NCBI GenBank assembly: GCA_000002445.1
Contig: AE017150.2
Span: 1,024,001-1,088,000 of the forward strand
Origin: Trypanosoma brucei
Taxonomy: Eukaryota
Reading direction: 5' to 3'
Length of the DNA: 64,000 bases
Part shown: positions 1-19,000 of the stretch, piece by piece
Position numbering within the stretch: position 1 is the first letter of the stretch
Layout: every line of letters starts with the position of its first letter
Made by a program: the position numbers and the translations under genes
The notes under the pieces: model-generated
The model's database searches: none
What the model saw: only the letters and a program-made list of their open reading frames with translations
What the model was told of the DNA's origin: nothing

Positions 1-519
1 CTCGGCATGAAGATGCAGTGCTCTCCCTTCGAGTGTGGTCGCGCCCCCACATTTCCCTGTAGACCTTGAACTGTCTAACTTTGCGATGTTCGGGCCTTCC
101 AATCACCGAGGATAGGCGCGACAGCGCAGGCGGATACCCTCGCCGGAGGACCAAAATTTCGTGCCATTTTCTATTAATTACTGTTGTGGCAGTTAAAATC
201 ATCACAACGCATAGCGAACCGTACGAACTCCGTCGGCAGCCTGCTGAACCGACAAGGTCCCTTTACTACGGACCACCGTCCGGCCTTCGCCAGCTGGTGA
301 AACAACCATTCCTCAATCGGGGCGCGCTCCCTGCCATAGAGTGCTCAGTTCAATTTCACCGCAGTGACCGTCGCCGTAACCGCCGCCAGACTGCATCCAC
401 ACGATAGAGGCACCAGGCTCCAACAGCCTGTTCAAAATTACCACCACAACCTGTAGTGGCGGTATCTTTCCAGGAAAGATTGGCCGCGTCTTGAGGCGCC
501 GGGAGAAAAAAACATATGT

Positions 520-600
520 ACGGAGGTTCGAACCTGCGGCCCCCAAGACGTAAGCACGGAAGTGCAATTTACGACACCTGGTCCATTGCATCGACGGAGC
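520..600 (-). promoter_or_regulatory. Divergently oriented tRNA-like element (B-box GGTTCGAACC at 527-536; A-box-like TGCAATGGACCAGG on the minus strand around 571-585) upstream of U2
   Basis: The B-box consensus GGTTCGANNCC lies about 155 bp upstream of the U2 start, and a D-loop/A-box-like motif lies about 104 bp upstream. The segment cannot be folded into a complete cloverleaf (no acceptor stem). This matches the known trypanosome arrangement in which upstream divergent tRNA-like A/B boxes drive snRNA genes. Confidence 0.5.
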
Positions 601-688
601 CCACCCGAATATATAATTACTTATTGAATTTATTCTTCGGTATTTCCTAGCTTGTTGCAGCCTACGGAACTTTTGGATAAGGCGCTGC

Positions 689-836
689 ATATCTTCTCGG
701 CTATTTAGCTAAGATCAAGTTATTAAACTGTTCTTATCAGAGTAACTCCTGATACGGGCCTTTGGCCCAAGGATCAAAACTGTTGGCTGTCCCGCGTTCT
801 TCCGGGGTTCCACTTGTCCGGATGGAGCGCGACGGT
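689..836 (+). ncRNA. U2: U2 small nuclear RNA gene (3' end approximate)
   Basis: The sequence from 689 reads ATATCTTCTCGGCTATTTAGCTAAGATCAAGTTATTAAACTGTTCTTATCAGAGTAACTCCTGATACGGGCCTTTGGCCC. This matches the conserved 5' end of U2 (branch-point-interacting GCTAAGATCAAGT..., stem-loop IIa, and the trypanosomatid-type 5' end ATATCTTCTCGG). A T-run follows near 856-862, consistent with a Pol III terminator. Confidence 0.8.
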
Positions 837-3800
837 CGCAAACGTTTTCCGACAAAACCAACCACTGAACGTTGTAAGGCAGTTATTGGAACGACCCGCA
901 TTTCCCATCACTTTATTCTCGCTTGGTGTATACTTTAACGCCTCGGATCCGCCGTGCCCCACCCGGGTGAGCGTCCGCGTGGTTCGCTCCTCCCTCCGTT
1001 TGGTCCTTCAAGTTCACTCTCGCAGGTCGAAAACCTCCTTTCATACGCGCCCACATGTTCTCACTTTCCGAAAAGACAATCCATTCACCTTTTTAAACCT
1101 TACAATGCTGGGAAGGAACCGCGGCCCATACTTCAACTTAACTACACAGGGACTCGGTTCGCCACTCCTTCCTGCTGAATTAACCGGAAAGCAATTCACA
1201 GCTTGAAATCGGACGCCACTGATAGGTAAAAACTCCTTGGTACCGACGAGAACAGAGGGAATAATTCACTTTTGCAGACTAAAAAAAGTTACGTACGATG
1301 TTAAACATAGCTCTTCCCGCACTTGCGCATCAAGGGACAACGCGGCCCAGAAGGAAGAGGTCCTACAACCAGGGGGAGCGATATCAGACTGCACGACTTT
1401 AAGGACGAGATTTCTTTCGGTTCGAGGAGGTGAATCTGCTTACAAAAACGTATTCAATGTAAATGAGATGTCGCACCTGTGGTAGTAATGATTCAATTTA
1501 GTGTTAACTGAGTATTGGGCCGCGAAAGAAAATCAGTTTGTACGATGCCCTCTCCCTCACACTCCCTGATCCTGCACTGGCACTCCTTTCAACTCCGTTT
1601 TCACAATGGTCACGGCTCCTTCGAATACAACGTCGGGCGAAGCGCTGGTGGCATGCCACTGGGCAGCCAGTACTTCTCCCATACGAGGAACACTGCGCAT
1701 CCCGAAACTCCTTCAACCCTTTTCCATCGGTGCTCGTTTTTGTATTGTGCACAGCAGTGCCGCTTAGTCGGGATTTCGCTTCATACCCTGTACTTCCACC
1801 ACTTAAGGCTCACAACAGTGCCGACAGTCAACGCAACCGTCCTTAAGGGAGCCGAGGGGAAACAAAAGGAAATACAAAATTCGGGCCGTCCACGCTCGCG
1901 TACACAGAGGTTCAAAACGCCCACGAAAACGCATACCTCCATATATTTATATTCATCCTCCGGAGACCAAAGAGGTGTACAGACCCCGATAAAATAGTTC
2001 ACCCGGCCTTTAATGCAGGTAAAGCACAACAAAAGTAAAGATAAAACGGTTTACGGCACCGGTTGCGGCGATTCCAAACTCATTTAATAATCGTGCTGAA
2101 CAAAATAAAAGCTTACCGCTGTGGCGACTGTCTCTATTGGCGCAACCTTTGTCGACCGAAGCGCTTTCCTGAGCGGAGGTGCTTCCACCGGAAACGGTAT
2201 TTATGGTGGGAAGCCTCTTTTAATTCTGCCAAAGGAGAAAAACCATTATGACGTCAAGGGCTTAGACAAACAAATACTCTGCAAGTGTGTCCGGAGTGTA
2301 ATGTAGGAGTGGATCACTCAACACACCACCATCGAACGGAGGAGAGGGAATCCCCGCATTACACCCCCTCCAGCGTTACGGAAGGAATATACGCTGATTC
2401 CCCAACACCATTAAGCCAGTGTAAGTGACCGGGCGATTGACCATCCAAGCAGAAATTTATGAGTCCTCTCAAAACTTGCGGCTCTTTTGCCCCCACCCCC
2501 TCCCCAATATACACAAGCACCTAAAAAATCCCTAACCATGTTCTGAAGGCCCTTACTATCTCCGACGCCTGACTTGACAGACGCGGCGTCTCAGAGATAG
2601 CAAACAGGCGAGGAAATGTGACATAAAGAAAGGTACTGCGAGCCCCTTCTGGGGCCGATGGGTATCCTTTGAGGGAGAGGATCGAATTCGTTTTCGCATT
2701 ACCCTGGTTTCATCTTCTCGGCATGCACCGCTACGTGCATGTAGTCGTTTTCGCCGAATGCCTTGTTCGTTCCAAGAGGCAAGCAAAAGATTTGACCGTT
2801 TACACGTTTTAAGCCTTACCAAAATTAGGGATAGATGTGCGGCGCGTCGTTCAGCGCCGTATAATAGTAATTCACCAGTTGAGTTAGCGAACCATATTGC
2901 TTTACAATTATTTTATGCCAAAATTTTTTTCTTGCCGTGCCGCTTCCGCGGTGCATCACAGCGCCCAAATAGAGGGACACTCCTTTTGGTAGTTAAGATA
3001 GCTGTGCTCCCCAAGAAAAATACCTACAACGGGTTGCGACAGAACTTTTCCCCAGACAAGCGGAGAAAACTACTGCACTTAATAAGGGGGCACGAAGGGA
3101 GCGCCTATGCTGAGAATCTGAACGAAATTTGGAAAGGTAATGTGGAGGGCAGGCCCAATAGCCGCCGCCAAAGAAAACTATTTTCGATGCGCGTCAAGCG
3201 GCAAGGGAACAACTTAGGTGTTGATGAGCGCAGCGTAAAAAAAAATTGTGCGATGGCTGTCTGTGGCTGTTGGAAAGGGGGCCAATTGGGGAGGTCAATG
3301 GCCAAGACGCTTCTTTGTGTTGCGCCTGCGGTAAATCGCCTGTCGCCTTAACGGCACTGTGCGGCACCTCACTGTGCTCTCGGCGGCGGGTGATGTGTCT
3401 GGAGGACGAATCCTGGGTGCATCTCCCGAAAATGTAAACATACAAGTGCGCTCGCCCTCTGTCAGTACCTATGGCTTCTCAGAGGGAACGGCGGGCGGAT
3501 AACCGCTCCTTCCCCCCGTTAACAAATGGTTTGAACTCTCCCTGTAATACTTTGCCCGTAGTTTCAACACAAAACAAGAAAAAAACCGGTTCTTTGCAAG
3601 TCTAAAAAGGAGTCTGTGGTCCAAACACCGCAGGGTAAAGACGTCGCTCTAGGGGATCTGTTGGCGTTGCGGTCCCATAGTTTTTGACAGGCCTTCGCTT
3701 TCCCACCTCTAGCGAGCGGTGCTTGCGATGACATCTTGTGAGATGAGTCTTGCTAGGAGACCCTCAGGAAACTGAGCAACTTTTGGCAGTAAGTTTTGGA

Positions 3801-6800
3801 GTCCAAAACTGTTTGGTGGCTTGAGGAGCCAGGTGCCACACCCACCACATCACGCGGTTTGACAGCGGATCGTCTTCCAAGATATGCCCCAGAAGCACAT
3901 AATTCGAGGCGCGACCGTTCTTTCTACACTTTTTGAGATGTTTAAGCTACTGACGGGTTGCTATATTCTATACCTTTCCCCTCAGAAGTATGGAGACCTC
4001 CTGATGTCGGCATGTTAAGCTATTGCGTCGCCGATGTCTCTCCCGTTGCGGTGCATCGCGGTGTTCCGGCCCCCGATAAGTTTGCGGGGCTCGACTTACG
4101 AATTCGTTTTTGCGGATTGGAGCCTTTGCCCCCTCTGTATAAGCGGTTGCGTAATCACACGGGTTGTCGAAAGGAGGAGCGGCATTGTATTTTTTTTCCT
4201 GTTCTTTGAAGTGGTGCTCACCCGTTGTTGGGCCCGTAAAGGGGTTGGCGAAGCGGTGGAATACCCCGGCGTCTTCCTGCAGTTACATTTCCCTCAGCCC
4301 GGATTCGTGTGGGACTCGTGGGTGCCCCTTTTAGCGACGGCCGGGTAGTCTGTCACCCGGTTTTTTTTACCCGAGCTCTCGGTGTTCCCTTTCCAATATG
4401 TTGCTGTCGCTGGCGTTTCGTTTGCTTCACTCCACTTTTTTCCCCCGGCACCGTGTCGTAAGGGCCCGTCCCGGCTTCCGCCTATTTGGCAATCAAGCCC
4501 CGTTGTCGCTTAGCGGGGCGTCGCCCTCTCTGAAGGTGGCTACCCCCCCTTTCCAGGCATTAGGAAACTGGTACTTTCTGCTGGAGAGAGTTCTGACACT
4601 CGCTAGTGGCTCCTTGCGGTTGGTGCACGAATGTGGGCAATTGCTTGGCGGACTGCCGGGGTTCGAGGCGAAACCGCCGGCAGCGGCGCCCCGCAAGTTA
4701 TTCGGAGGTTTCACCCTTGATTTCCCGCGCCTCCCGTGTTCCCGCTTCTTTCAGGGGGAATGACCGACACCCCTGTGATGTTTGTTAAGCAGGCTCGGGG
4801 CCTGTAAGTGTAAGTGCAAGTGTATGGGTGCAGGTGTATATGCGCTGGAGCCTTCTATGAGTGGTTACGTGGCTCCCACTGAATGGGGCAGAGAATGCTT
4901 ACCGACTCAGTCACACAAAAATACGGGAGTTGTTGAGTTTGTCTACTGAAGCTGGTCTGCTGTGTCTCAAGGTTGGCCGCTTTAACTAGTTGTTCGCGGC
5001 CGTGCCGTGGACGGGTGCGGTGGGAGAGGCCCTCGCAAGTTTCATCCTGATCCTTCTTCGCCAGCTGTGATAAGCGGCCCCATTTCTGTTAATTAGTGAA
5101 GTGTGGCGTGTTCATTAGTTGCTTCGTACGTTCATCCGCTTGGTGAGTTTATGGGGTTTGTTGGTCTACTGAGGTGAATCACATAGTTTCTGTTTGCGGC
5201 ATCTTTTACGGGGTATTTCTGTCAGGCGGTGCACTCTCTTTTTGGAAAAGAAGATGCGAGGACCGACTTTTTTTTCTATTTTTCTTCGTGCTGAAAGGTG
5301 CAGTATTTGCTGTATTTTTGAGTGCTTTTAATTTCCGCTTTTTCGCAAATGATGCTATGGCTTGAGCAGAACCAACAGCATGCGGCAGTGATAAGTGCAC
5401 TTGGCTGCCACTAACCTGCGCTTTATTTATGAAACCCACTTCTGTTTCCTTTTTTAAACCATCGACGGATATACGCGTTCAATAGTGTATACGGATCACT
5501 TTCCCTTCAGCTAACACGAGTTTGCGTTGTTACCCGGTTTCGAGATTCCTCGTACGTTACCAAGAGAACTAGTATGGAGACCGCGTTCGTAGTTTGTCTC
5601 AGTTGTGGCAATTCGTTATTTTTTGTTCATTTTAGTGTTTTACGTTCATGAATTTATGTCCTTGGCGAGGGACTTAGTGACGGATTGTAAGCAAGTACTC
5701 TACTTTCGTTCGGTTCTAATATTTTCATTGATCACACTGGTTCACTTGCCCCGGAATCGCCGGACCAAAATCACATGTTTCCTTTCGTAGGAAAGGGGAT
5801 GTGCGAACGTGAAATAAAGTTTGTGCTCTATTCGTATGGTTACGTTTATATATATATATATATATATTACTGTTTAGTGAAGGCGTATCTTTCAGTGAGA
5901 GAGGGAGAGAGATGATAATGAGAGATATTCCGTATTTCCTGTTTAGGATTATACAAGCATCTTCACTTTTTGGTACGTGCCGAAGAAGGCAGTTTTGGAT
6001 AGGTACCAAGTTTTGCCTTTCTCGAGGGATCGTTCTGTGTGCATTTTTCTTTTTCTTTTTTGAAAAGACCATCGCACTACTTATTTCGCCGTCAAGTACC
6101 TTTTCTTGCGATTCATTCCTTCTGTTTACTCATATAGGAACTCTAGATTCCTCATACTGGAACCGGTAGTTTATTATTATTATTATTGTTGCATGCGTGT
6201 TTAATGTCTGTTAATAACTAATTATAATGGTTTAAAATGTTCATAGTTCTCGCGCTACTGGTCATGTTTCTAAGACACTGTGGGTATTCCAATAATAACA
6301 TCATTTTTTTTATAAAAAAGTGAACTATAATATCTCTTATCCACTTTATCCGTTGGCAGTTTTTTCTTTTTTTCTTTTTTTAAAAAGGAGAATACATATT
6401 TTTTTGTTGCTAACCGGTTATTTCGTTGCATGGTCTGGTGTGTATCCCTCGCGGAGATTGGGAGTTGAGGTGACGGGAAGTATTAAGATAAGCTGTTGTG
6501 GAGCAATGATATTTATAGACACCCTTTTTTTTGCTTTCGTTACCTGCTAAAAGGTGACAGTGGTGAGGATTCCCCCCCTCCAAAGCAAAGGAGAGCGAAA
6601 CTGTTTTTTACCTGTGGAGGCAGCGCCGTTGTACGCGAGGGCATCTCAATGAAATTCCCTACTTAGCGTAGCGATTAATATCTAAGAGATCAGGTGGGGA
6701 CATTGTGGAGAAATCTGTTTATTCTATTTTAGAGCTTGCTCGGTACTGTTTGTTAAAGGCATTGCTGATGCTCATGCAAAGTGTTTTAACGGAGGACGTT

Positions 6801-7691
6801 ACGGCCGTTTTAGTTTCGGATGTCGCTACAACTTTGTTGCTGATGGGCGGGTTTACTCCCTTTTCTCTACTTTTTAGTGAAAATGTGATTTATGTTCAGT
6901 AATACCGAAGCCAACTGAGTTCTGTGTAATCCGTATCTGAGTGTGAATGAGGATTGTTAATTTTTCAAGTTTCTCTTCTGTTGTTGTTTACCCTTAATTT
7001 TGTTAAAAATTCAATCCGGGAGTTCCACGATATTGTTTTATTGAGATATCTATTTTAATTCGAGCAGTGTAATACCGTTTTTTTTTCTTAAAATGAGATG
7101 AGCAAGAGTCGATGAACATGAATATTTTGATTTTAGCCTATTTGGCCACCAACAACGACATTTTTCCATTTTTAACTCAAGCCGTTCCCTTCTACGATTT
7201 GAAAAAAAAATGTTGGAGTTTTTTGCGTGTGATACAGTAGTGCGGAGGATTATTTTCTTATTTTCTGTTTTCGTTTTACCCACATGGCCTGGTGGATTTG
7301 GGTGATATGCAAAATATGTTTGGCGGCCACACAATTGTGCATCGGGGTGAATAGTATCTACTTTCTTCTGCTACCGTTGGAACGGCCCCGTCGTGCTTGC
7401 TATCCGAAGGTATCATATTACGTATGTAACCGTTGTAGTTTTTCGTTCTACCCTTCCTGTTGGTGTGCTTTGTTTTATTTTCATTGCTGTCATTGTTCGC
7501 ACAAATATCAATACCCCCCTCCAAAAGACATATCGGGCCGTAATTTATTTGTTTTACAGTTTCGTGAACCCGTGGTAGTCGTGATACTCCATTTTTAAGG
7601 ATTATCAATTGCAGTGAGGTTATTGGTTTCGAGTTGAATTTTAAATCGTACAACTTCATAATTTTGACCCTTTCCTCCCCGCTGTAACCGA

Positions 7692-7744
7692 TTTTTCTCA
7701 CTCATTTTCAACATTCTCTCTTTAATTTTCTTTCCTCCCACCAG
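7692..7744 (+). promoter_or_regulatory. Polypyrimidine tract plus AG, a putative trans-splice acceptor for the TDP1 gene
   Basis: An uninterrupted C/T-rich run (ttttctcactcattttcaacattctctctttaattttctttcctcccaccag) ends in AG, about 225 nt upstream of the first ATG of the next CDS. Confidence 0.4.
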
Positions 7745-7967
7745 AAAGAGGGTATATATACGTTTTTGATACAAGTATACTTATAATTAGATTCATTAAA
7801 TTTAATGCCTTTATAATAGATAGTTCATCGTCACATTCACATCGTGACGTTTAATTTTTAGGTGGGTATAAAGCGGTTTGGTACATGCAAGTAGGTTTTA
7901 AGTCGACGTAGAATACATCCGCCGATTTTAAAAAAAAATTATTGTAGGCTGCGTGGAAAGAAAAAAA

Positions 7968-9629
7968 ATGGAGGAAACAAAGTTATGCCCATTTTGGGTT
8001 AGCAGAGTAAGCGGTTTAGCTACCGAGTCGCCGTCAGCCCTGACCCTATCCGATCTGCTACATTGTAATATTGAGGATCCAAGTGAGGTGTGGACGCATG
8101 TTGTGTTGGCAAATTACTTGATTGATTTGGAGTGGGTCTTCGATATGGCTACTTGCCTGCAACTCTCAAATTGTCATGTTATGATCGTTTCCGGTGAAGA
8201 GGGGTTAGCTGAGAGATATGCGGCGTCGCCTCTCGCTGGGTTACTCGGTAAGGAAAGAGTAGAAATAATTAAACCAAAACTTCCGTTACCATTCGGAGTT
8301 CATCATGGAAAATTGATATTGTGCGTAAATTCGAAAGGCGTAAGAATATCGGTGCTTACCGCAAATTTTATCGAGAGTGACTGGGGTAAAAAAACTCAAG
8401 GGATATACGTACAGGACTTTCCTCGTTTGGTTACATCATCTGCGAGTAGTAACTCGATGGGATCGTTGCAGGCCCTACGCAGATGCCGGGGAACAAGATT
8501 CAAAGAGGAAATAAAGCGGTACCTCAGCTGTATCGGTGCTATTTCTTCCACAACTGGGACGAATTGCATTCCACTATCTTTGCTAGATGAAGTTGATTAC
8601 AGCGGTGCGTGTGTGGAACTTGTTTCTTCTGTTCCGGGATGCCATCGCAACTCGGACGCCTATCGTTTCGGAATGGGCAGACTGCAGGAGGTCCTACGCG
8701 CCATGCAAATAAGCTCGCCGTCTGGTGAAAATTCTCCCACACTTGTATGGCAGTTTAGCTCCCAAGGGACGCTAACTAGCAATTTCCTAAGGTCTTTGGA
8801 GCGTGTTATGACTATCAGCACCGATAATACACCACTTCCAGATACGAAATCTCCAACGGTCCGGATCATTTATCCAACAGAAGCTGAAGTGAAGGGTTCG
8901 TTTGAGGGGTGGCATGGGGGACTATCGCTACCTGTTAGGCTGCGTTGCTGCCATCCCTACGTTAATGAAAGGCTGTATCGTTGGGGTCAGCGTCCGTACG
9001 CTGAGGGTGCTGACCGAGGGAGAAATAGGGCGATGCCCCATATAAAAACTTACATGCGCTTGACAGAAAATGGTGACGGACTGAAGTGGTTCATGCTAAC
9101 GAGTGCTAATCTGTCGCGGGCCGCTTGGGGGGAATGGCAAAAAGGCGGAACCCAGATCTTGATACGGTCCTATGAACTTGGGGTAGTGTATGGTACCGAT
9201 TCGTTTATTAACCCTGCGGATGGCGGACTATTCAGCGCGACACCTTCAAAACCGATACCGGTTCCGTCATCCATTGGTGGCGACGGTCTAGTGAGAGTGA
9301 AGATAAAAACTCTACCATCTGAATCAGATCGGGACGAACCAACACTCTTCTTGCCTTACAATCCCCTTAATCCTCAACCTTACGTAAGCACACTTCAGAT
9401 GCAGCAAAGAGAGCATAGACACACCGGCCATAGCTGTGTTTCCCAACTCAGCAGCCTTGATGTGCCCTGGCTAGTCGATCTACCTCATCGTGGGAAGGAC
9501 TGCTTGGGTAAGGAATTTCGTGATGTGTTGGAAGGTAGCAACCGCCGCGGGGAAGAGCCTGACCCGTTGAGGTCTGGAGGGTGTTGTGTTGGTGCGTTGG
9601 GGGAGAAACGAACCAACAGGGATGCGTGA
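7968..9629 (+). CDS. TDP1: Tyrosyl-DNA phosphodiesterase 1 (TDP1)
   Basis: Both HKN catalytic motifs are present. The first, GVHHGKLILCVN...RISVLTANFIESDWGKKTQGIY, aligns with human HHTKMMLL...VIHTSNLI..DW..KTQGIW. The second, MPHIKTYMR...WFMLTSANLSRAAWG, is nearly identical to human MPHIKTYMR...WFLVTSANLSKAAWG. The start was moved from the track's GTG (7953) to the first ATG. Confidence 0.85.
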   Translation: MEETKLCPFWVSRVSGLATESPSALTLSDLLHCNIEDPSEVWTHVVLANYLIDLEWVFDMATCLQLSNCHVMIVSGEEGLAERYAASPLAGLLGKERVEIIKPKLPLPFGVHHGKLILCVNSKGVRISVLTANFIESDWGKKTQGIYVQDFPRLVTSSASSNSMGSLQALRRCRGTRFKEEIKRYLSCIGAISSTTGTNCIPLSLLDEVDYSGACVELVSSVPGCHRNSDAYRFGMGRLQEVLRAMQISSPSGENSPTLVWQFSSQGTLTSNFLRSLERVMTISTDNTPLPDTKSPTVRIIYPTEAEVKGSFEGWHGGLSLPVRLRCCHPYVNERLYRWGQRPYAEGADRGRNRAMPHIKTYMRLTENGDGLKWFMLTSANLSRAAWGEWQKGGTQILIRSYELGVVYGTDSFINPADGGLFSATPSKPIPVPSSIGGDGLVRVKIKTLPSESDRDEPTLFLPYNPLNPQPYVSTLQMQQREHRHTGHSCVSQLSSLDVPWLVDLPHRGKDCLGKEFRDVLEGSNRRGEEPDPLRSGGCCVGALGEKRTNRDA

Positions 9630-10073
9630 GATTGCATCGTGTTTTTTCTAAGTTATATTTAATTTTTAGAATTTCAGTTAATATTTTGTTTCATGACTTT
9701 ACGTGTTTGGGCACCAAATTCTCTCTTTACAGTGACCTCTTCCTTTACTGTCTTCTTGTTGCTCATTGCAACAAGGCGCACTTCCGTTCCTGCCGCAACG
9801 TGAAAGGATTATACGACTGACTCTGCCCCTCATCGTAGATTTTAGTGTCGTTTACCACCGTTACGTGTTCTTTCATGCTTCTCTACTTAATGTTTCCATT
9901 TCAATAGTTGTTTGATAGCCCAGAAACCACAAAAGAGTAAAGGGTTGAGGTGCAAAAGTTGATTTCACTTTGGAGCCGCATTGTTGACAGAGGGTAATCC
10001 TTTCGTTTTTGCTGTTAAAGGTGGCGTGCGCGGCAAGCCAAGGCCTGTATACAGTTTTCTGGGGGATCTGGCA

Positions 10074-13000
10074 ATGGGTGAAGCAGATGCGCCTTCTGGG
10101 GGTCAAGAATCAAACTACTTACCTGTGGCAGCCGTAGTGAACAGCGGAAGTGCATCAGGTTCAGGTGCTCACCGTGGTCCGAGACATCAACGTGAGAGAT
10201 CGGGCGGAAACGAAAACACTGAGAATGTACCTCCGCTGCCGAAGACTGGGCTAACCAATGCATCGTTCGTGAGGTTGGAGGATCCTCGTGATATTGGTGA
10301 GGCCACTTCTACCGAAATACTGTCTGAACCAGATGACGAAGAGGAACATTTGGTTACTTATCATGGCGTGAAGCTTAACGGGGACAATTGGGTTGACGTG
10401 CTGAGGGGATCGCGTGCTGTATTCGACGATGCCTTGGGTGCTGACGTATGCGATATGCTTGCGCTTCCTCGCAGTAGTGTGAGGGATGTAAAGGTGGGCG
10501 CTGATGGACAGTCGGTTATGTTTGGTGTGCGGCACCCCTTTTCACTACAAAAGGACGAAGTAAATAAGGCACTGGAGAGCTGCCGGTTTACCAGTACGTT
10601 GAAGTTGTACGATCTGCAAACTGATTCTGGTCCATTGGAAACTGACTCTCCCGTACTCAAGGCCTCTGAGAGTGCACCCCCATCGCTCCGTGACGAGGAG
10701 TCTTCACAGCATGGTGATATTAAGGGTGCCTCGTCTGTGAAAAAGATCAAACCTCGTAATCACAACATAGGTGCTTGTTCAATTACTGGCCATTCTGCTT
10801 CCGTTGAAGTGTTGTACGGTGCGATTTACGATGAAGACGCTGCCGTAACGCACCACCGCGTAAAGTTTAACGGCAACAATTGGGACTCTATTGTGCACCA
10901 CAAGGGTATGGCCATAAGGGAGGCGTTTGATACTGACGTGAGTAATGCGCTGGGTCTGCCCCGGGGCAGCGTGGAGGATGTGACATTGGCTCCTGATGGG
11001 CTTTCAATGAGTTTTAGTGTGCGACACCCAGCATCATTGCGGAGAAAAGATGTTAATAAAATTCTGGCGAAGTGCCCATTTGAGAACACATGGAGGTTAT
11101 ATGAATCAAAGAAATCTTTTAATAACTCCAGAGTTGCCTCTTTTGTGCTCAGATCGTCGGTGAACGCACCTCCATCGCTGAGGGCCGAAGAGGACGTAGG
11201 AGTGGTGCTGGGTGACTGGGACGCCAACCCACCCTTTGAATTTCTTGTCCCAGCTACTGCGTCACAGATGACGGTTGTGAGGCCCCCTAATGCAGCCAGT
11301 GGTGAATGTAACATTAACTCTATGCCCGATGATATCCTGATCAATACAGAAGGTGAAGGTTTTGGCACTGTAACACGTCATGAAGTAAAATTTGAGGGAG
11401 ACAATTGGGGTGTTGTGCATGAGAAGAAGCGTGTTGCATTTGATGAAGCATTCGACGCTGACATATGCGGTGCATTGGGCGTACCTCGGGGAAGTGTGGA
11501 GGATATGGTGTTAGCTTCTGATGGACAGTTGGTTTCGTTTGGTGTGCGGCATCCTGCCTCCTTAGGGAAAAAAGATATCAACAAAGCCCTATCGAGCTGC
11601 CCATTTGAAAACACATGGAAGTTGTATGAACCAAAGAAGTCCGCTTCTCCCTCGGAGCTCAACTCACCTGTTATGAAGGCCACTAAGGGTGAGCTTGCGC
11701 CACTGCGAGCGGGGGAAGTTGTGGGACCAACACCCTTGGAGGTAGGGGGGCCTCGTGACCTTGCTGCTGATGGTGCTACTGCAAAGACGTCCGGTCAACC
11801 CGTTGACGTAGAGACAAATGTACTAACGCGTCACCGTGTAAAGTTTCACGGAGACAATTGGGGTGTTGTGCATGAGAAGAAGCGTGTTGCATTTGATGAA
11901 GCATTCGACGCTGACATATGCGGTGCATTGGGCGTACCTCGGGGAAGTGTGGAGGATATGGTGTTAGCTTCTGATGGACAGTTGGTTTCGTTTGGTGTGC
12001 GGCATCCTGCCTCCTTAGGGAAAAAAGATATCAACAAAGCCCTATCGAGCTGCCCATTTGAAAACACATGGAAGTTGTATGAACCTAAGAAGTCCGCTTC
12101 TCCCTCGGAGCTCAACTCACCTGTTATGAAGGCCACTAAGGGTGAGCTTGCGCCACTGCGAGCGGGGGAAGTTGTGGGACCAACACCCTTGGAGGTAGGG
12201 GGGCCTCGTGACCTTGCTGCTGATGGTGCTACTGCAAAGACGTCCGGTCAACCCGTTGACGTAGAGACAAATGTACTAACGCGTCACCGTGTAAAGTTTC
12301 ACGGAGACAATTGGGGTGTTGTGCATGAGAAGAAGCGTGTTGCATTTGATGAAGCATTCGACGCTGACATATGCGGTGCATTGGGCGTACCTCGGGGAAG
12401 TGTGGAGGATATGGTGTTAGCTTCTGATGGACAGTTGGTTTCGTTTGGTGTGCGGCATCCTGCCTCCTTAGGGAAAAAAGATATCAACAAAGCCCTATCG
12501 AGCTGCCCATTTGAAAACACATGGAAGTTGTATGAACCAAAGAAGTCCGCTTCTCCCTCGGAGCTCAACTCACCTGTTATGAAGGCTACTAAGGGTGAGC
12601 TTGCGCCACTGCGAGCGGGGGAAGTTGTGGGACCAACACCCTTGGAGGTAGGGGGGCCTCGTGACCTTGCTGCTGATGGTGCTACTGCAAAGACGTCCGG
12701 TCAACCCGTTGAACGAGAGGATGGATGTGTAACTTCCCATGCTTTGAAGCTTGAGGGAGACAATTGGGGTGCTGTGTATGAAAAGAAGCGTGCTGCATTT
12801 GATGAAGCATTCGACGCTGACATATGTGATACACTGGGCGTACCTCGGGGAAGTGTGGAGGATATGGTGTTAGCTTCTGATGGACAGTTGGTTTCGTTTG
12901 GCGTGCGGCATCCTGCCTCCTTAGGGAAAAAAGATATCAACAAAGCCCTTTCGAGCTGCCCATTTGAAAACACATGGAAGTTGTATGAACCAAAGAAGTC

Positions 13001-16000
13001 CGCTTCTCCCTCGGAGCTCAACTCACCTGTTATGAAGGCCACTAAGGGTGAGCTTGCGCCACTGCGAGCGGGGGAAGTTGTGGGACCAACACCCTTGGAG
13101 GTAGGGGGGCCTCGTGACCTTGCTGCTGATGGTGCTACTGCAAAGACGTCCGGTCAACCCGTTGAACGAGAGGATGGATGTGTAACTTCCCATGCTTTGA
13201 AGCTTGAGGGAGACAATTGGGGTGCTGTGTATGAAAAGAAGCGTGCTGCATTTGATGAAGCATTCGACGCTGACATATGTGATACACTGGGCGTACCTCG
13301 GGGAAGTGTGGAGGATATGGTGTTAGCTTCTGATGGACAGTTGGTTTCGTTTGGTGTGCGGCATCCTGCCTCCTTAGGGAAAAAAGATATCAACAAAGCC
13401 CTTTCGAGCTGCCCATTTGAAAACACATGGAAGTTGTATGAACCTAAGAAGTCCGCTTCTCCCTCCAGGTTTGACTCTCTTGTTCTGATGACCACTAAGG
13501 GTGAGCTTGCGCCACTGCGAGCAGAGGAAGAGGCTGCCGGACCACTGCCCGATGCTTCCGATGCTTTTCCTTCAGCGACAGCCGCGGTATCTAATTTGTT
13601 GCCTGCAAAGGCAATAAGATCACGTTATTTTTCAAGTGGTGAGTGTAACATCACCACTAGTGGTGCTACCCCTATAGCCCTATATGGAGCGTTGTGTGAC
13701 AGTGACACTGTTGTCACACGGCACCGTGTGAGGTTTAATGGGGAAAACTGGGATTTGGTTTTACAACGCAGACGTGCAGAACTGGACGACGCGTTGGATG
13801 CTGATGTGAGCGAAGCGTTGGACCTGCCTCGAGGAAGCGTTAGTGATATTGAGTATGTACCCGACGGCCTTACTGCGTCGTTTGGTGTGCGGCATCCCGC
13901 GGCGTTCCGTAGGCGGGACATCGCGCGTTTACTTTCGAAGGGTCAGTTTGCGAATTTGTGGAAGATGTACCCACGCAGCAGAAATATTGATACTTTAGGG
14001 CCTTCGTTGTCCTCGTTGAAGGCATCGGAAAAAGCCCCGCCGAACATAGTAGGGGGGGAAGTCGTACCACCGGTCCCCAATTTTTGTCAGAGCCGTGCTA
14101 AGGTTGACGCGGCAGGACTTCCTACTCGCGCATCTGATACGGTTACTCCATCGGACTACACCAATGGTCAACAGTCAGTTATGAAAACGGAGAAGCGCGG
14201 CAGTGTTGTTGATGGAGGTGATACCATTATTACTTGCCACCGCGTAAAGCTGAGTGGAGCCAACTGGGTCGAGGTAGTTGAGACGAAACGGGCTGCATTC
14301 GACGAAGCATTCGATACCGATGTGTGTGAGGCATTGGGCTTCCCCTTGGGTTGTGTGGAGGATGTGCTGTTAGGTCCCGATGGTCATTCGGTTACGTTTG
14401 CGGTGCGCCACTCAGCCTCTTTGCAAAAGAGTGACGTCAAAAAGGTTCTTCGTCTTTGCCCATTTGCTAACACATTGCAGTTATACCATTCACGGAGAAC
14501 TCTCCCTTCTTCTGAGGTTGCATCCACCGTGCTTCGAGCAACTGAAAAGGAAAAACCTGCGCCGACACCGCGAAGCCACGGTTCAGCCAAACCTTCGACC
14601 GTAAAGGTGGCGGCGTCTTGTGACCTCGAGGGAAGGGGTGCTGACGGTGATCCAGCCTTCGTTGAAGTATTTAATGGACTGATCAGCGACGAAGATACCT
14701 TGGTAACACGCCATGGCGTACTGCTCAACGGAGAAAATTGGCTTAAATTACATGAAAGCAAATCTGCAGCGTTTAATGACGCATTCGATGCTGATGTGTG
14801 CGAGGCGCTGGGTCTTCCATGCGGCAATGTTGAAGGTATAAAGTTGAATCCCGACGGCCACCTAGTTACCTTCGGCGTTCGTCATCCTATTTCACAGCGG
14901 AGGGAGGATATCAACAGAGCTCTTGGAAAATGCAGATATCAGAATCTGATGAAATTGTACAACTCCCGTTCTGCTGTTTATTCCTGTGTCGCCACATCCC
15001 CCATGCTTAGAGCAACAGAGACGGCGCGCGCGGCGTTAGCGACCCAAGAGTCGATCTCACAACCTGCGGTCTCCGAGGTAGCCAATACAACATCGGTAGG
15101 GGTGGCGAAGTCGCGCAACCTTCTGGACGGAAGCGCGGCTGCGAGTAACTCTGCTTCTGTAGCCGGATTGCATGCTTTCCTTTCAGATCAGCCGGTTGTA
15201 ACCCAGCACGGTATAAAATTCAGCGGGGCCAACTGGGCTGATGTGATTGAAGGCCGTGCAATGTTTGACGACGCGCTTGATGCTGATGTGTGTGAGGCGG
15301 TGGGTCTTCCTCGAGGGAGCGTTGAAGACATACTACTAAGCTCTGATGGACGCTCCGTCGCCTTTGGTGTACGCCATCCTGCTTCCATAAGCAAAGGGGA
15401 TATCAATCAAGCACTTGATAACTGCAGATTTGTCAACACTTTGAGGTTGTATAATATGCGTTCTGCTGTTTATTCCTGTGTCGCCAAATCCCCCATGCTT
15501 AGAGCAACAGAGACGGCGCGCGCGGCGTTAGCGACCCAAGAGTCGATCTCACAACCTGCGGTCTCCGAGGTAGCCAATACAACATCGGTAGGGGTGGCGA
15601 AGTCGCGCAACCTTCTGGACGGAAGCGCGGCTGCGAGTAACTCTGCTTCTGTAGCCGGATTGCATGCTTTCCTTTCAGATCAGCCGGTTGTAACCCAGCA
15701 CGGTATAAAATTCAGCGGGGCCAACTGGGCTGATGTGATTGAAGGCCGTGCAATGTTTGACGACGCGCTTGATGCTGATGTGTGTGAGGCGGTGGGTCTT
15801 CCTCGAGGGAGCGTTGAAGACATACTACTAAGCTCTGATGGACGCTCCGTCGCCTTTGGTGTACGCCATCCTGCTTCCATAAGCAAAGGGGATATCAATC
15901 AAGCACTTGATAACTGCAGATTTGTCAACACTTTGAGGTTGTACGTCTCGCGATGCCCTCCCGTTGTTTATGAAGCCAGTCGACCACCACTAAAGGCTGC

Positions 16001-19000
16001 TGAGGCTGAGCAATTGTCACTAAAGGCTGCTGAAACGAAGCGACCACCACTAAAGGCTGCTGAGGCTGAGCAATCGTCACTAAAGGCTGCTGAAACGAAG
16101 CGACCACCACTAAAGGCTACTGAGGCTGAGCAATCGTCACTAAAGGCTGCTGAAACGAAGCGACCACCACTAAAGGCTGCTGAGGCTGAGCAATCGTCAC
16201 TAAAGGCTGCTGAAACGAAGCGACCACCACTAAAGGCTGCTGAGGTTGGGCGACCACCACTAAAAGCTACTGAGGCTGAGCAATCGTCACTAAAGGCTGC
16301 TGAAACGAAGCGACCACCACTAAAGGCTGCTGAGGTTGGGCGACCACCACTAAAAGCTACTGAGGCTGAGCAATCGTCACTAAAGGCTGCTGAAACGAAG
16401 CGACCACCACTAAAAGCTACTGAGGCTGAGCAATCGCCACTAAAGGTTACTGAAGCTAGGCGTGCACCACCAGCAAGAGCCACTGAGGTTGAGCGACCAC
16501 CTCTAAAAGTGGTGGAGATTAGCTCGCCAACGAGTTTCGTGGCGGGACCGAGGTCCGTGGGGCTCGTTAACCCCCCAAGTCTTGTGGATACAGGCATTAT
16601 TGGAAGTAGCTCTGCTTCATTTGACATACTGTATGGCTCCCTGAAAGACGAAGGGGCTGTGGTAACCGAATACCGTGCCAAGTTGAACGGGAGTCACTGG
16701 CGTGTTTTGCTGCAACACAGGTTCCTGGAGTTCGAGGAGGCCTTTTACGGTGATGTGTGTGATGCGCTGAGTCTTACGAAGGGGAGCGTGGACAACATGG
16801 AACTAGACTCTGATATGCAGGCATTTTCTTTTGGTGTGCGACATCGCAGGTCACTTGAACCGAGTGCTGTGTTACGTCAGTTGGGAGAATATCATTTTTC
16901 TAAAACTCGGGAATTTTGTGACTCACAAAAACGGTTTGGTGTCGTTGTTGATGATCATGACCAGCTCCTCACCCTAGAAATTGCTTCGAAACAGGAACTA
17001 CCGGAGGCTGATGATGGTTGCGACGAAGACTTGCGGCACTTGCAGACTTCAGGACGTAGTGATCTGCCTTCTTCGCCTTCGTCCCCACTGTGCATCAAGA
17101 AGACAAATACACGAACAATGCACTTTGGCAATACCGGTGCCGGCGCTGTACGTTTACCGAAGACCAGGAAATACGAGGCCGCTCCCGCGAACGCCACTGT
17201 GACGCAACACCGAGTTCAATTTGTCGCCGAGAACTGCGGTCATGTTGCCGATGAGACGCGGGAGAAGGTCCCCCAAGCACTGAATCTTGACGTCTGCGAC
17301 GCACTGGGCATTTCTTGGAAGTGCGTGGAGGAGGTAACGCTCAGCCCTGATGGAAGACTTGTGACATTTGGTGTGCGTCATTCGCCGAAAATGAGCCGTG
17401 CCGATGTGAGGAGCGCGCTCATAGCACACGATTTCCCATACACATGGAAAGTTTATGAACCGGATACGCTAGTTGAGTTCGAAAGCGGAGTTGAACGTAC
17501 TACCGCGGAACAAAAGTCACAAGCAACCCCGAAAGCAACGAGTACATCATCCATATATTTCTCTCCTTCTTCCGTCCCACCGTTCGTGAGAGTTGCTGAG
17601 CCTCAAAATTTTGTTAAGGACAGCTTTACTATAAGTAACACTGCCTCTTTGGAGGTGCTTCACACTGCAATCGGCGATGGCACTGTCGTAACAAAGCACC
17701 GTGTCAAATTCAATGGGGACAATTGGGGTGCTGTGCTTGAGAAGAAGCGTGCTGCATTTGATGAGGCGTTTGATGCCGACGTGTGTGATGCGTTAGACCT
17801 TCCTCGGGGAAGTGTGGAGGGGATAACGTTGGGCTCAGATGGCCTCTCAATTGACTTCGGTGTGAGACACCCCGCTTCGTTGCACAAGGATGAGGTGGAT
17901 CATTTTCTGTCGACCTCTGAGTTTCCTGCGATGTGGAACCTTTATGAGCCGAAGAAGAAGGTCTTGTCATCGATTGTCATGGGGGACACCGAAGAGCGTG
18001 AGACAACCTCTTTTAGTACTTCGCTGCCCCAACGCGCCTCTCCCGTCAGCGCCAAGGAGTTCCCATCTTGTTTGCACCCCGCTCCCGGGGTTGCGTCCAG
18101 CTCCGTTCCAATGGACCGCGCTGATGGTGCATCGGGTTCGGGTAATGTGTGCCACTTATACCGTGTTGGATTTGTGGGGGGTTTCTGGAGCGGCATCGTT
18201 GACAAGCGCTTTACTGCAGCAGTGGACTGCTTTATGCGTGATGCGGCTGTCGGAGAGGGTCTAGTCCCACGTAGTGTGGAGAGGGTTGTGTCGCTCGACT
18301 CTGGTAATGTTGTGTTTTCCGTCTGGATGGAGCATGCGGCTGCTCTGTCGCAGAGTGAAGTGTGCACAGCGATGGACAACGCCCCCTTTCCATCCATGTG
18401 GAAGCTATATGACGACTTGATCAATGAAGGTGTTGTCGGGCGGACCACGACGTTGCATCGCGTGGGTTTGGTGGGGTCTGAGTGGGCGCATGTGGCAAAC
18501 GTTGATCTGGTCAAAGAGGTATTTATCCAGGATGTTGCAGAGGCACTTCGCCTCAGTCCTGAGGATATAAATGTTAACGAGTACACAGTTAACGATAAGC
18601 TCGTCATCGGGTTCTACGTGAGCCATTCCCACACCTTAACAGAAGTAGATATCGACGATATGTTGGCTAATGCTCCACTCTCGCGTGTGTGGGGATTATG
18701 CCCGGTCCCTGGAACAAATTCCTGGAAAGCTGCACACTGCAAGGGTTCGGCAAGAAGCAACTCCGGTTCCTTTCCACATACCGAGCCCCTTCGTGGTGGC
18801 CGGTTTCGCGACCTTTCTCCAATACCCTTGTCGGGTGGGATTCCCGCTGAAACTCCGCACGACCGACGCTCAAATTCTCAATATCGGCGGTCGTTGGGAC
18901 CTCTTCAAGGCGTTGTATCCCCGCCGATGCGAAGGTATGATGGCCATAACCAGCACTCCGGCCGGTTCTATCAGGCAAATAAGCGGTCGCCGGGTCAATT

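What the first reader, a model, noticed from the sequence alone, without database searches (positions are those of the whole stretch)
500..860. U2 snRNA gene with a divergent upstream tRNA-like A/B-box element
U2 starts at 689. A B-box (GGTTCGAACC, 527-536, about -155) and an A-box-like D-loop motif (about -104, minus strand) lie upstream but do not form a foldable tRNA. This reproduces the unusual kinetoplastid Pol III snRNA promoter architecture, in which a tRNA-like A/B box set upstream is required for expression. It also serves as a positional anchor for this contig.
Basis: partly seen in the sequence, partly recalled or inferred. Interest (0 to 1): 0.5.

Follow-up and report, generated by a model that had tools for sequence, protein, structure and literature searches.

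The report
Trypanosoma brucei U2 gene and promoter

Summary
Rfam places U2 at 689-837 (+), 83 bits, without stem-loop III. GGTTCGAACC is unique in the window but lies at 525-534, not 527-536. Its end nearest U2 is at -155. On the minus strand a weak A-box-like motif (TGGACCAGGTGT) starts at exactly -104, and a T7 run begins 11 nt after box B, where a tRNA gene's terminator would sit. It is not a tRNA: ARAGORN and Infernal (E<=10) find nothing, the stems do not pair, and folding is no better than for shuffled sequence.

Four published primers for Tb927.2.5680 match exactly, and the neighbouring Tdp1 protein is 100% identical to that of T. b. brucei TREU927. So this is the T. brucei chromosome 2 U2 locus itself, the type example of the architecture rather than a new instance.

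In syntenic loci from T. b. gambiense, T. theileri, T. melophagium and T. cruzi, minus-strand GGTTCG is the only invariant upstream block. The A box stays at -104 to -107 and a T-run follows box B. Published ChIP places TFIIIC and Pol III on this region.

Verdict: already known, low interest. One side observation may be new. The body of the tRNA-like element differs by 18% between T. brucei haplotypes, while the spacing of the boxes is unchanged.

The parts
689..837 (+). U2 snRNA gene. The mature RNA is reported as about 145 nt, which would put the mature 3' end near 833.
   Evidence: Rfam RF00004, 83.2 bits, E 6.6e-15, stem-loop III absent. The first 32 nt are invariant in 7 sequences from 5 Trypanosoma lineages. 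Published qPCR primers match at 696-720 and 777-794. The 145 nt length comes from the discussion of PMC4950102.
689..712 (+). Intragenic promoter element, within roughly the first 21-24 nt of U2. The extent is taken from the literature and was not mapped here.
   Evidence: PMC4950102 (Background, citing Fantoni 1994 and Nakaar 1997) describes a third element within the first 21 nt of the snRNA coding region. Mutating +6/+12 in L. major cut U2 to 17%. Here the sequence is invariant, but RNA function would also explain that.
845..848 (+). T4 run, the probable Pol III terminator of U2 (+157 to +160).
   Evidence: Read directly from the sequence. Orthologues have T-runs of 5 or more starting near +142 to +145.
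574..585 (-). Box A of the tRNA-like element. The minus strand reads TGGACCAGGTGT and its 5' end is at -104.
   Evidence: Position. Orthologues have TGGCCCGGGTGT at -104 (T. b. gambiense), TGCCCAAGTGG at -105 (T. melophagium), TATCCAAGTGG at -107 (T. theileri) and TAGCTCAAACG at -105 (T. cruzi). L. major box A is TAGCCCAACAGG at about -104 (PMC4950102). The match to the tRNA consensus is weak.
524..534 (-). [quoted passage not shown] The minus strand reads GGTTCGAACCT and its 5' end is at -155.
   Evidence: Unique in the window, 0.04 expected. Identical to L. major box B (PMC4950102, section 20). Minus-strand GGTTCG is the only invariant upstream block across species, and the orthologues are not palindromic, which fixes the strand.
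506..512 (-). T7 run, the Pol III terminator of the tRNA-like unit. It begins 11 nt after box B, which corresponds to tRNA position 74.
   Evidence: A T-run of 5 to 8 lies 11-14 nt after box B in all five lineages.
506..600 (-). tRNA-like transcription unit, a decayed tRNA gene. The 5' end (about 598-601) is inferred from the reported 89-nt transcript and the terminator position.
   Evidence: The 89-nt transcript in T. brucei is reported in the PMC4950102 discussion, citing Tschudi & Ullu 2002. No cloverleaf forms. Folding z-scores are +0.17 and +0.22.
593..688 (.). 96-bp spacer between the tRNA-like element and U2. It includes an AT-rich stretch at 604-637 with TATATAAT at 610-617. It is inferred to be the TFIIIB assembly zone.
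   Evidence: Sequence. The AT-rich stretch has no differences between the two T. brucei haplotypes, but this is not significant. The ChIP amplicon 445-705 is enriched for Tau95 and C82 (PMC10781861, PMC11894013). The TFIIIB role is inference.

Best explanation
Window 500-860 is the single-copy U2 snRNA gene of Trypanosoma brucei (TREU927-type allele, Tb927.2.5680, chromosome 2) together with its complete Pol III promoter.

The promoter is the skeleton of a former tRNA gene, read divergently from U2. It keeps box A at -104, box B at -155 and a T7 terminator, but has lost its cloverleaf.

Likely mechanism: TFIIIC binds boxes A and B. It positions TFIIIB in the 96-bp spacer. Pol III then initiates in both directions. 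One direction gives a short, unstable, roughly 89-nt tRNA-like RNA that ends in the T7 run. The other, helped by an element in the first ~21 nt of the gene, gives U2 from +1 (689), ending at the T4 run at 845-848.

Shown here: the identity of the locus; the position, orientation and conservation of the boxes and terminators; and the absence of tRNA structure.

Shown in the literature: dependence of U2 expression on boxes A and B and the intragenic element; transcription by Pol III; occupancy by TFIIIC and Pol III; and transcription of the tRNA-like element.

Inferred: that TFIIIB is shared, or placed stereospecifically, in the spacer.
For: Locus identity:
- Rfam U2 hit.
- Four published T. brucei primers match exactly, once each, in the expected order (primers from PMC10781861 and PMC11894013).
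- Tdp1 7 kb downstream is 100% identical to TREU927 XP_951723.1.
- The same locus lies on the T. b. gambiense record FN554965.1.

Promoter anatomy:
- Box B is unique in the window.
- In 5 Trypanosoma lineages with a syntenic U2, minus-strand GGTTCG is the only invariant upstream block. Box A starts at -104 to -107, box B at -155 to -165, and a T-run follows 11-14 nt after box B.

Not a tRNA.

Literature:
- Boxes A and B plus the first ~21 nt are required, and the ~104-bp spacing is conserved (PMC4950102, citing Fantoni 1994 and Nakaar 1994/1997).
- Tau95 (TFIIIC) ChIP is enriched on U2 and its promoter (PMC10781861).
- C82 (Pol III) ChIP is enriched there, and knock-down lowers U2 to 44% (PMC11894013).
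- The T. brucei tRNA-like element gives an 89-nt transcript (PMC4950102 discussion).

The fixed position of box A combined with a variable A-to-B distance (51-60 nt) fits direct, position-dependent action. It also fits what is generally known of TFIIIC, which binds its two boxes through flexibly linked modules.
Against: - The A box is a poor match to the tRNA consensus and cannot be told from chance by sequence alone.
- The A box differs at 2 of 12 positions between T. brucei haplotypes.
- The primary mutational papers (Fantoni 1994, Nakaar 1994, Tschudi & Ullu 2002) could not be read. The exact experimentally defined box limits are therefore taken second-hand.
- There is no TATA-like sequence at -30 of U2.
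- How one TFIIIC serves two start sites is unresolved in the literature (PMC4950102 discussion).
Confidence: 0.95

Rival explanations
1. The upstream element is a genuine, functional companion tRNA gene, as at the T. brucei U6, U3 and 7SL loci.
For: It has an A box, a B box and a terminator in tRNA-gene geometry. ARAGORN draws a tRNA-Val-like cloverleaf at 514-587 when its threshold is lowered to 80%.
Against: ARAGORN finds nothing at default, -ps or -ps90 settings. The -ps80 setting gives 26 hits in the window and about 34 per shuffled copy, so that hit is noise. Infernal's tRNA model gives no hit at E<=10. Only 2 of 7 acceptor pairs and 2 of 5 T-stem pairs form. The T. b. gambiense allele gives no hit even at -ps80.
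Confidence: 0.01
2. The A and B motifs act indirectly. TFIIIC binding only keeps the region free of nucleosomes, and U2 initiation is directed by the intragenic element and other factors without any stereospecific link to the boxes.
For: PMC4950102 (discussion) raises this as an open alternative. In L. major a second B box about 100 bp further upstream also contributes 46%, which looks like a distance-tolerant effect. There is no TATA at -30 of U2.
Against: Box A stays within 3 bp of -104 in every Trypanosoma lineage examined and in most of the 19 trypanosomatids in PMC4950102. This holds even though surrounding sequence is unalignable between species, and even though 18% of the element's body differs within T. 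brucei without any change in the -104/-155 spacing. A pure chromatin-opening role would not need such fixed spacing.
Confidence: 0.2
3. The ~89-nt tRNA-like RNA is a functional non-coding RNA in its own right, comparable to the tRNA-like sRNA-76 of the trypanosome SRP. On this reading, its conservation reflects RNA function rather than promoter function.
For: It is transcribed in T. brucei, L. major and L. collosoma (PMC4950102). A complete transcription unit with terminator is conserved.
Against: None of the five transcript models folds better than shuffled sequence (z from -0.23 to +0.48). The two T. brucei alleles give different predicted structures. The body differs at 16 of 87 positions within the species complex. 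T. theileri and T. melophagium have T5-T6 runs between boxes A and B that should stop Pol III early. [quoted passage not shown]
Confidence: 0.04
4. The GGTTCGAACC match is a chance palindrome and has nothing to do with U2 expression.
For: It is a 10-nt palindrome, and the looser pattern GGTTCRANNC occurs at the chance rate in the window (6 found, 4.4 expected).
Against: The exact 10-mer is expected 0.04 times in the window. GGTTCG is invariant at the same place in five lineages in which nothing else upstream can be aligned. Published mutagenesis and ChIP also contradict this reading (PMC4950102, PMC10781861).
Confidence: 0.01

Closest known systems
T. brucei U2 snRNA gene promoter (Fantoni, Dare & Tschudi 1994, Mol Cell Biol 14:2021; gene Tb927.2.5680)
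   Same: It is the same locus. Primers match exactly, and the flanking Tdp1 is identical to TREU927. Box A at -104, box B at -155, the intragenic element and Pol III transcription are as summarised in PMC4950102.
   Different: Nothing of substance. From the title of Tschudi et al. 1986 I infer that the original clone came from T. b. gambiense. That allele differs from this window at 16 of 87 positions in the tRNA-like body.
L. major U2 snRNA promoter (Rojas-Sanchez et al. 2016, PMC4950102)
   Same: A divergent tRNA-like element with box A about 104 bp upstream. Box B is identical (GGTTCGAACCT). There is an intragenic element, and the tRNA-like element is transcribed and does not form a cloverleaf.
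   Different: Leishmania has a real tRNA-Ala further upstream whose B box contributes to expression. T. brucei has no tRNA within 2.2 kb upstream. The A-to-B gap is 33-36 nt in Leishmania and about 39 nt here. The transcript is 109 nt there and 89 nt here. The genomic neighbourhood is different.
T. brucei U6, U3 and 7SL genes with genuine divergent tRNA genes (Nakaar et al. 1994, as cited in PMC4950102)
   Same: The same rule applies: A and B boxes of a divergently oriented unit, with box A 104-106 bp upstream of the small RNA gene.
   Different: At those loci the companion is a functional tRNA gene. Here only the promoter and terminator skeleton survives.
Classical type 2 Pol III promoter (internal A and B boxes of tRNA genes bound by TFIIIC)
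   Same: The same box consensus, the same A-B-terminator geometry and the same factor, TFIIIC (Tau95 ChIP, PMC10781861).
   Different: Here the boxes also drive a second gene that lies outside the unit and is read in the opposite direction.
Metazoan and yeast U2 genes (Pol II, PSE/DSE or TATA promoters) and the vertebrate U6 type 3 Pol III promoter
   Same: The product is a U2 spliceosomal RNA (Rfam RF00004).
   Different: The polymerase and promoter logic are different. The RNA lacks stem-loop III, and GUAGUA in the branch-point recognition region is replaced by UUAUUA (alignment).

Membership tests
U2 spliceosomal snRNA (Rfam RF00004) | Covariance-model score above the curated gathering threshold over the full model | tested here: met
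   83.2 bits against 46, model positions 1-192, E 6.6e-15.
U2 spliceosomal snRNA (Rfam RF00004) | Conserved 5' region (AUAUCUUCUCGGC...GAUCAAGU) with stem-loops I, IIa, IIb and IV | tested here: met
   The alignment shows stems I, IIa, IIb and IV paired. The first 32 nt are invariant across 5 lineages.
U2 spliceosomal snRNA (Rfam RF00004) | Stem-loop III and a canonical GUAGUA branch-point recognition sequence | tested here: not met
   Model positions 113-145 are deleted and GUAGUA is replaced by UUAUUA. Absence of stem-loop III is the reported state for T. brucei and L. major U2 (PMC4950102 discussion). That the branch-point sequence is divergent in trypanosomatid U2 is my own knowledge, not in the passages read. 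Neither point argues against membership of the trypanosomatid subgroup.
Trypanosomatid Pol III snRNA promoter with divergent tRNA or tRNA-like element | Box B (GGTTCGANNCC-like) upstream, on the strand opposite to the snRNA | tested here: met
   GGTTCGAACCT at 534-524 on the minus strand. The strand is fixed by non-palindromic orthologues.
Trypanosomatid Pol III snRNA promoter with divergent tRNA or tRNA-like element | Box A about 104-106 bp upstream of snRNA +1 | tested here: met
   The position is met: -104 here and -104 to -107 in orthologues. The sequence is weak, 6 of 9 consensus positions, as PMC4950102 reports for U2 tRNA-likes in general.
Trypanosomatid Pol III snRNA promoter with divergent tRNA or tRNA-like element | Pol III terminators (T-runs) after both transcription units | tested here: met
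   T7 at 512-506 on the minus strand and T4 at 845-848 on the plus strand.
Trypanosomatid Pol III snRNA promoter with divergent tRNA or tRNA-like element | snRNA expression depends on boxes A and B and on an intragenic element; transcription is by Pol III | not testable with these tools
   Literature only: Fantoni 1994 as cited in PMC4950102, Tau95 ChIP (PMC10781861), and C82 ChIP and knock-down (PMC11894013). The ChIP amplicon is window 445-705.
Genuine tRNA gene | Cloverleaf detectable by ARAGORN or the Infernal tRNA model | tested here: not met
   0 genes. No RF00005 hit at E<=10. The hit at -ps80 is at the noise rate.
Genuine tRNA gene | Acceptor and T stems pair when the sequence is threaded from the A and B boxes | tested here: not met
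   2 of 7 acceptor pairs and 2 of 5 T-stem pairs.

The most novel reading that the evidence does not exclude
The tRNA-like promoter module is a local hot spot of sequence divergence within the T. brucei species complex. It differs at 16 of 87 positions (18%) between the TREU927-type allele and the DAL972-type allele. The immediate flanks differ by about 5%, and the sequence from 1 kb to about 5 kb downstream by about 1%. The -104/-155 spacing, the GGTTCG core and the terminator are all kept.

If real at population level, only the geometry and a handful of bases are under selection. It could also mean that DNA occupied by TFIIIC and Pol III mutates faster, or that two old promoter haplotypes are being maintained.
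Probability: 0.3. Interest if true: 0.35.

Novelty: already known. Interest (0 to 1): 0.1.

Why it matters
All trypanosome mRNAs need trans-splicing, so U2 supply is essential. The borrowed-tRNA-promoter arrangement is a well-known peculiarity of kinetoplastid gene expression.

For this scan the finding matters mainly as a reliable anchor. It identifies the window as T. brucei chromosome 2 (TREU927-type) and fixes the orientation of the gene cluster that follows. It adds no new biology.

The only item that may be new is the within-species hypervariability of the promoter body. If confirmed in population data, it would give a natural mutagenesis map showing which promoter positions matter.

Tried and rejected
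- The primary papers could not be read: Fantoni 1994 (PMC358562), Nakaar 1994 (PMC359204) and Tschudi & Ullu 2002 (PMC5977529) are not held. I used secondary accounts instead.
- Exact-protein look-ups failed for the window's Tdp1 and for the TREU927 protein P0098. No third T. brucei allele of the promoter could be fetched.
- The T. congolense contig has only 2.7 kb upstream of Tdp1 and holds no U2.
- The bacterial-type promoter and terminator scan found nothing relevant. It is the wrong model for Pol III.
- The strict pattern GGTTCGANNCC does not match, because position 11 is T. PMC4950102 reports that position as variable.
- I considered 'TGCAATGG' (590-583) as the A box. I rejected it in favour of TGGACCAGGTGT, which starts exactly at -104, because orthologues and L. 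major place the box start at -104 to -107.
- Relaxed ARAGORN hits cluster on the minus strand at 207-282, 348-441 and 514-587 and suggested relics of a tRNA cluster. I rejected this. The hit rate is below that of shuffled sequence, and Infernal sees nothing at E<=10 in the window or in 2.2 kb of the DAL972 upstream region.
- I looked for a remnant of the Arf-like GTPase gene that lies between U2 and Tdp1 in other species. tblastn found none.
- Two apparent divergence peaks, at 7044-7130 and 9043-9129, are artefacts of my chunked alignment and were ignored.
Full report
**1. What is there**

Rfam's U2 model matches window 689-837 on the plus strand at 83.2 bits (gathering score 46, E 6.6e-15). 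The match spans the whole model except stem-loop III. It is the only Rfam family above threshold in the 64 kb. A T4 run follows at 845-848. ARAGORN finds no tRNA anywhere in the window.

Upstream, the 10-mer GGTTCGAACC occurs once in the window, at 525-534, with 0.04 matches expected by chance.

Read on the minus strand, the region runs as follows:
- ...GGGCTCCGTCGATGCAA, then TGGACCAGGTGT starting at base 585 (-104).
- 39 nt further on, GGTTCGAACCT starting at base 534 (-155).
- 11 nt further on, TTTTTTT at 512-506.

The order and spacing are those of a tRNA gene: an A box, a B box, and a terminator that begins at the equivalent of tRNA position 74.

**2. Is it more than chance, and is it a tRNA?**

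The B box is significant on its own. The A box is not. It matches 6 of the 9 specified positions of TRGCNNARTGG. A scan allowing one mismatch misses it, and that scan finds fewer sites in the window (30) than in shuffles (47). The A box is supported by position, not by sequence.

The element is not a tRNA:
- Infernal with permissive filters gives no tRNA hit at E<=10 in 300-1100 or in 1-690.
- ARAGORN is silent at default, -ps and -ps90 settings.
- At -ps80 ARAGORN draws a poor tRNA-Val-like cloverleaf at 514-587. That setting yields 26 hits in the window and about 34 per shuffled copy, so this hit carries no weight.
- Threading the sequence onto a cloverleaf from the two boxes gives 2 of 7 acceptor pairs and 2 of 5 T-stem pairs.
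- The presumed transcript folds no better than dinucleotide shuffles, with z = +0.22 and +0.17.

**3. Identity of the locus**

Two T. brucei papers list primers for 'U2 snRNA gene (Tb927.2.5680)' and its promoter (PMC10781861, PMC11894013). All four match the window exactly, once each, at 445-464, 687-705, 696-720 and 777-794.

The first real gene downstream (7968-9629) is a tyrosyl-DNA phosphodiesterase (Pfam PF06087, E 9e-94). Its product is 100% identical to the T. b. brucei TREU927 protein XP_951723.1 and 99% identical to the T. b. gambiense DAL972 protein.

The same arrangement lies on DAL972 record FN554965.1: adenylate kinase, U2, Tdp1, then a large protein with FAZ1_cons domains.

The window is therefore T. 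brucei chromosome 2, TREU927-type. The finding is the very locus on which this promoter architecture was defined.

**4. Comparative test**

Using Tdp1 orthologues I fetched syntenic loci. U2 lies upstream of Tdp1 in T. b. gambiense, in a second T. brucei-group assembly (GCA_003543875.1), and in T. theileri, T. melophagium and T. cruzi. None has a true tRNA upstream of U2. In DAL972 nothing tRNA-like is seen by Infernal in the 2.2 kb back to the adenylate kinase gene.

In an alignment of -250 to +32, the U2 5' end is invariant from exactly +1. The only invariant upstream block is plus-strand CGAACC, which is minus-strand GGTTCG. The B box is palindromic only in the window allele. Elsewhere the minus strand reads:
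- GGTTCGAGCCT in T. b. gambiense
- GGTTCGGGATC in T. theileri
- GGTTCGGGACC in T. melophagium
- GGTTCGATTCC in T. cruzi

These fix the element's orientation as divergent from U2.

The positions of the three elements are conserved:
- Box A starts at -104 to -107.
- Box B starts at -155 to -165, so the A-to-B distance is 51-60 nt.
- A T5-T8 run lies 11-14 nt after box B in every lineage.

This independently reproduces the conclusion of Rojas-Sanchez et al. 2016 (PMC4950102, section 20): box A is fixed in position but loose in sequence, and box B is fixed in sequence but loose in position. L. major box B is identical to the one here.

**5. How it works**

Taken from the literature:
- In T. brucei all snRNAs are made by Pol III.
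- Boxes A and B of the divergent tRNA or tRNA-like element, plus an element in the first ~21 nt of the snRNA, are needed for expression. The ~104-bp distance is conserved (PMC4950102 Background, citing Fantoni 1994 and Nakaar 1994/1997).
- The T. brucei tRNA-like element is transcribed into an 89-nt RNA (PMC4950102 discussion).
- The TFIIIC subunit Tau95 is strongly enriched on the U2 gene and on the promoter amplicon, which is window 445-705 (PMC10781861).
- The Pol III subunit C82 is enriched there, and its knock-down lowers U2 to 44% (PMC11894013).
- In L. major, mutating the sequence between the boxes has no effect on U2, whereas mutating either box cuts U2 to 13-16% (PMC4950102, section 18).

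Inferred: TFIIIC on the two boxes places TFIIIB in the 96-bp spacer (593-688, AT-rich at 604-637). Pol III then starts in both directions. One start gives the tRNA-like RNA, at about 598-601, stopping in the T7 run. The other gives U2 from 689, stopping at the T4 run.

The near-invariant position of box A favours a direct, position-dependent mechanism over mere chromatin opening. The invariance holds against a background of unalignable sequence between species, and within T. brucei despite 18% divergence. The literature treats the question as open, and I give the indirect model about 0.2.

An independent function for the tRNA-like RNA is unlikely for three reasons. It has no fold signal in any of five lineages. 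It diverges quickly. And in T. theileri and T. melophagium, T5-T6 runs between the boxes should stop Pol III early.

**6. Comparison with what is known, and novelty**

This is the known T. brucei U2 promoter. It differs from the L. major version in lacking the additional upstream tRNA-Ala. It differs from the T. brucei U6, U3 and 7SL loci in that the companion is a relic rather than a working tRNA gene.

**7. Side observations**

(a) The window and the DAL972-type allele differ unevenly:
- tRNA-like body (506-592): 16 of 87 positions, 18%
- rest of 1-1044: 5.2%
- 1045-5000: 0.7-1.1%
- U2 itself: 1 of 149

The binomial P is about 1e-5 against the local flanks. Once the alignment artefacts are set aside, this stretch is the substitution peak of the 11 kb I could align. 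The -104/-155 spacing is unchanged. Box B changes only at its variable position 8, and box A changes at positions 4 and 7. Two independent assemblies carry one allele. The window carries the other, and its Tdp1 protein is identical to TREU927; one published Tb927 primer (445-464) also separates the two alleles at a single base. This fits the 'free-to-vary body' shown by mutagenesis in L. major, but the size of the excess is unexplained.

(b) DAL972 and GCA_003543875.1 carry a ~505-bp insertion at window 1033-1044. [quoted passage not shown] The window has the empty site. The drop in divergence from about 5.6% to about 1% coincides with this point.

(c) In T. theileri, T. melophagium and T. cruzi an Arf/Ras-like GTPase gene lies between U2 and Tdp1. 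In T. brucei it is absent, and 7 kb without a convincing ORF takes its place.

Noticed in passing
window 506-592 (compared with L001:2036-2123 and L002): The body of the tRNA-like promoter element differs at 16 of 87 positions (18%) between the TREU927-type window and the T. b. gambiense DAL972 / GCA_003543875.1 allele. The immediate flanks differ by about 5%, sequence 1-4 kb further on by about 1%, and U2 itself at 1 of 149 positions. Box spacing is unchanged. P is about 1e-5 against the local flanks. The cause is unexplained.
   Followed up: partly
window 1033-1044; L001:2583-3086: DAL972 and GCA_003543875.1 have a ~505-bp insertion about 200 bp downstream of U2, and the window holds the empty site. 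The insertion has a 12-bp target-site duplication (ACCTCCTTTCAT), a T10 start and a RIME/ingi-like 5' end in reverse orientation. The RIME identification is from memory. The fall in between-strain divergence coincides with this point.
   Followed up: partly
window 850-7950; L007, L008, L010: In T. theileri, T. melophagium and T. cruzi an Arf/Ras-like GTPase gene lies between U2 and Tdp1. In T. brucei it is missing (no tblastn trace). About 7 kb with no ORF matching Pfam fills the gap, including low-GC stretches (37% at 6001-8000).
   Followed up: partly
L008:7976-8047 and L009:1488-1559: T. cruzi has a tRNA-Arg(ACG) gene convergent with U2, starting 54 bp after its 3' end. The T. brucei, T. 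theileri and T. melophagium loci have no equivalent.
   Followed up: no
L007:2552-2576 and L010:6979-6998 (minus strand, -130 to -154 relative to U2): In T. theileri and T. melophagium, T4-T6 runs lie between boxes A and B on the transcribed strand of the tRNA-like element. They should stop Pol III before it reaches box B, so there the element probably acts only as a factor-binding site.
   Followed up: no
window 829-848: The T. brucei U2 terminator T-run is only T4 and starts at +157, about 12-15 nt further downstream than the long T-runs in T. cruzi, T. theileri and T. melophagium. The extra GCGACGGTCGCAAACG contains a short palindrome (GCGAC/GTCGC).
   Followed up: no
window 9981-19301: A 3106-aa ORF whose orthologues carry Pfam FAZ1_cons. 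It contains internal tandem repeats with a period of about 453 bp (11371-13530) and shorter 60-bp-register repeats near 15980-16510. Repeat copy number differs between T. brucei assemblies.
   Followed up: no
window 7953-64000: All 14 long ORFs that do not lie inside another ORF are on the plus strand, and cumulative GC skew rises steadily. This fits a single polycistronic transcription unit. U2 lies in the ORF-poor region between the upstream adenylate kinase gene, which is on the same strand in DAL972, and this unit.
   Followed up: no
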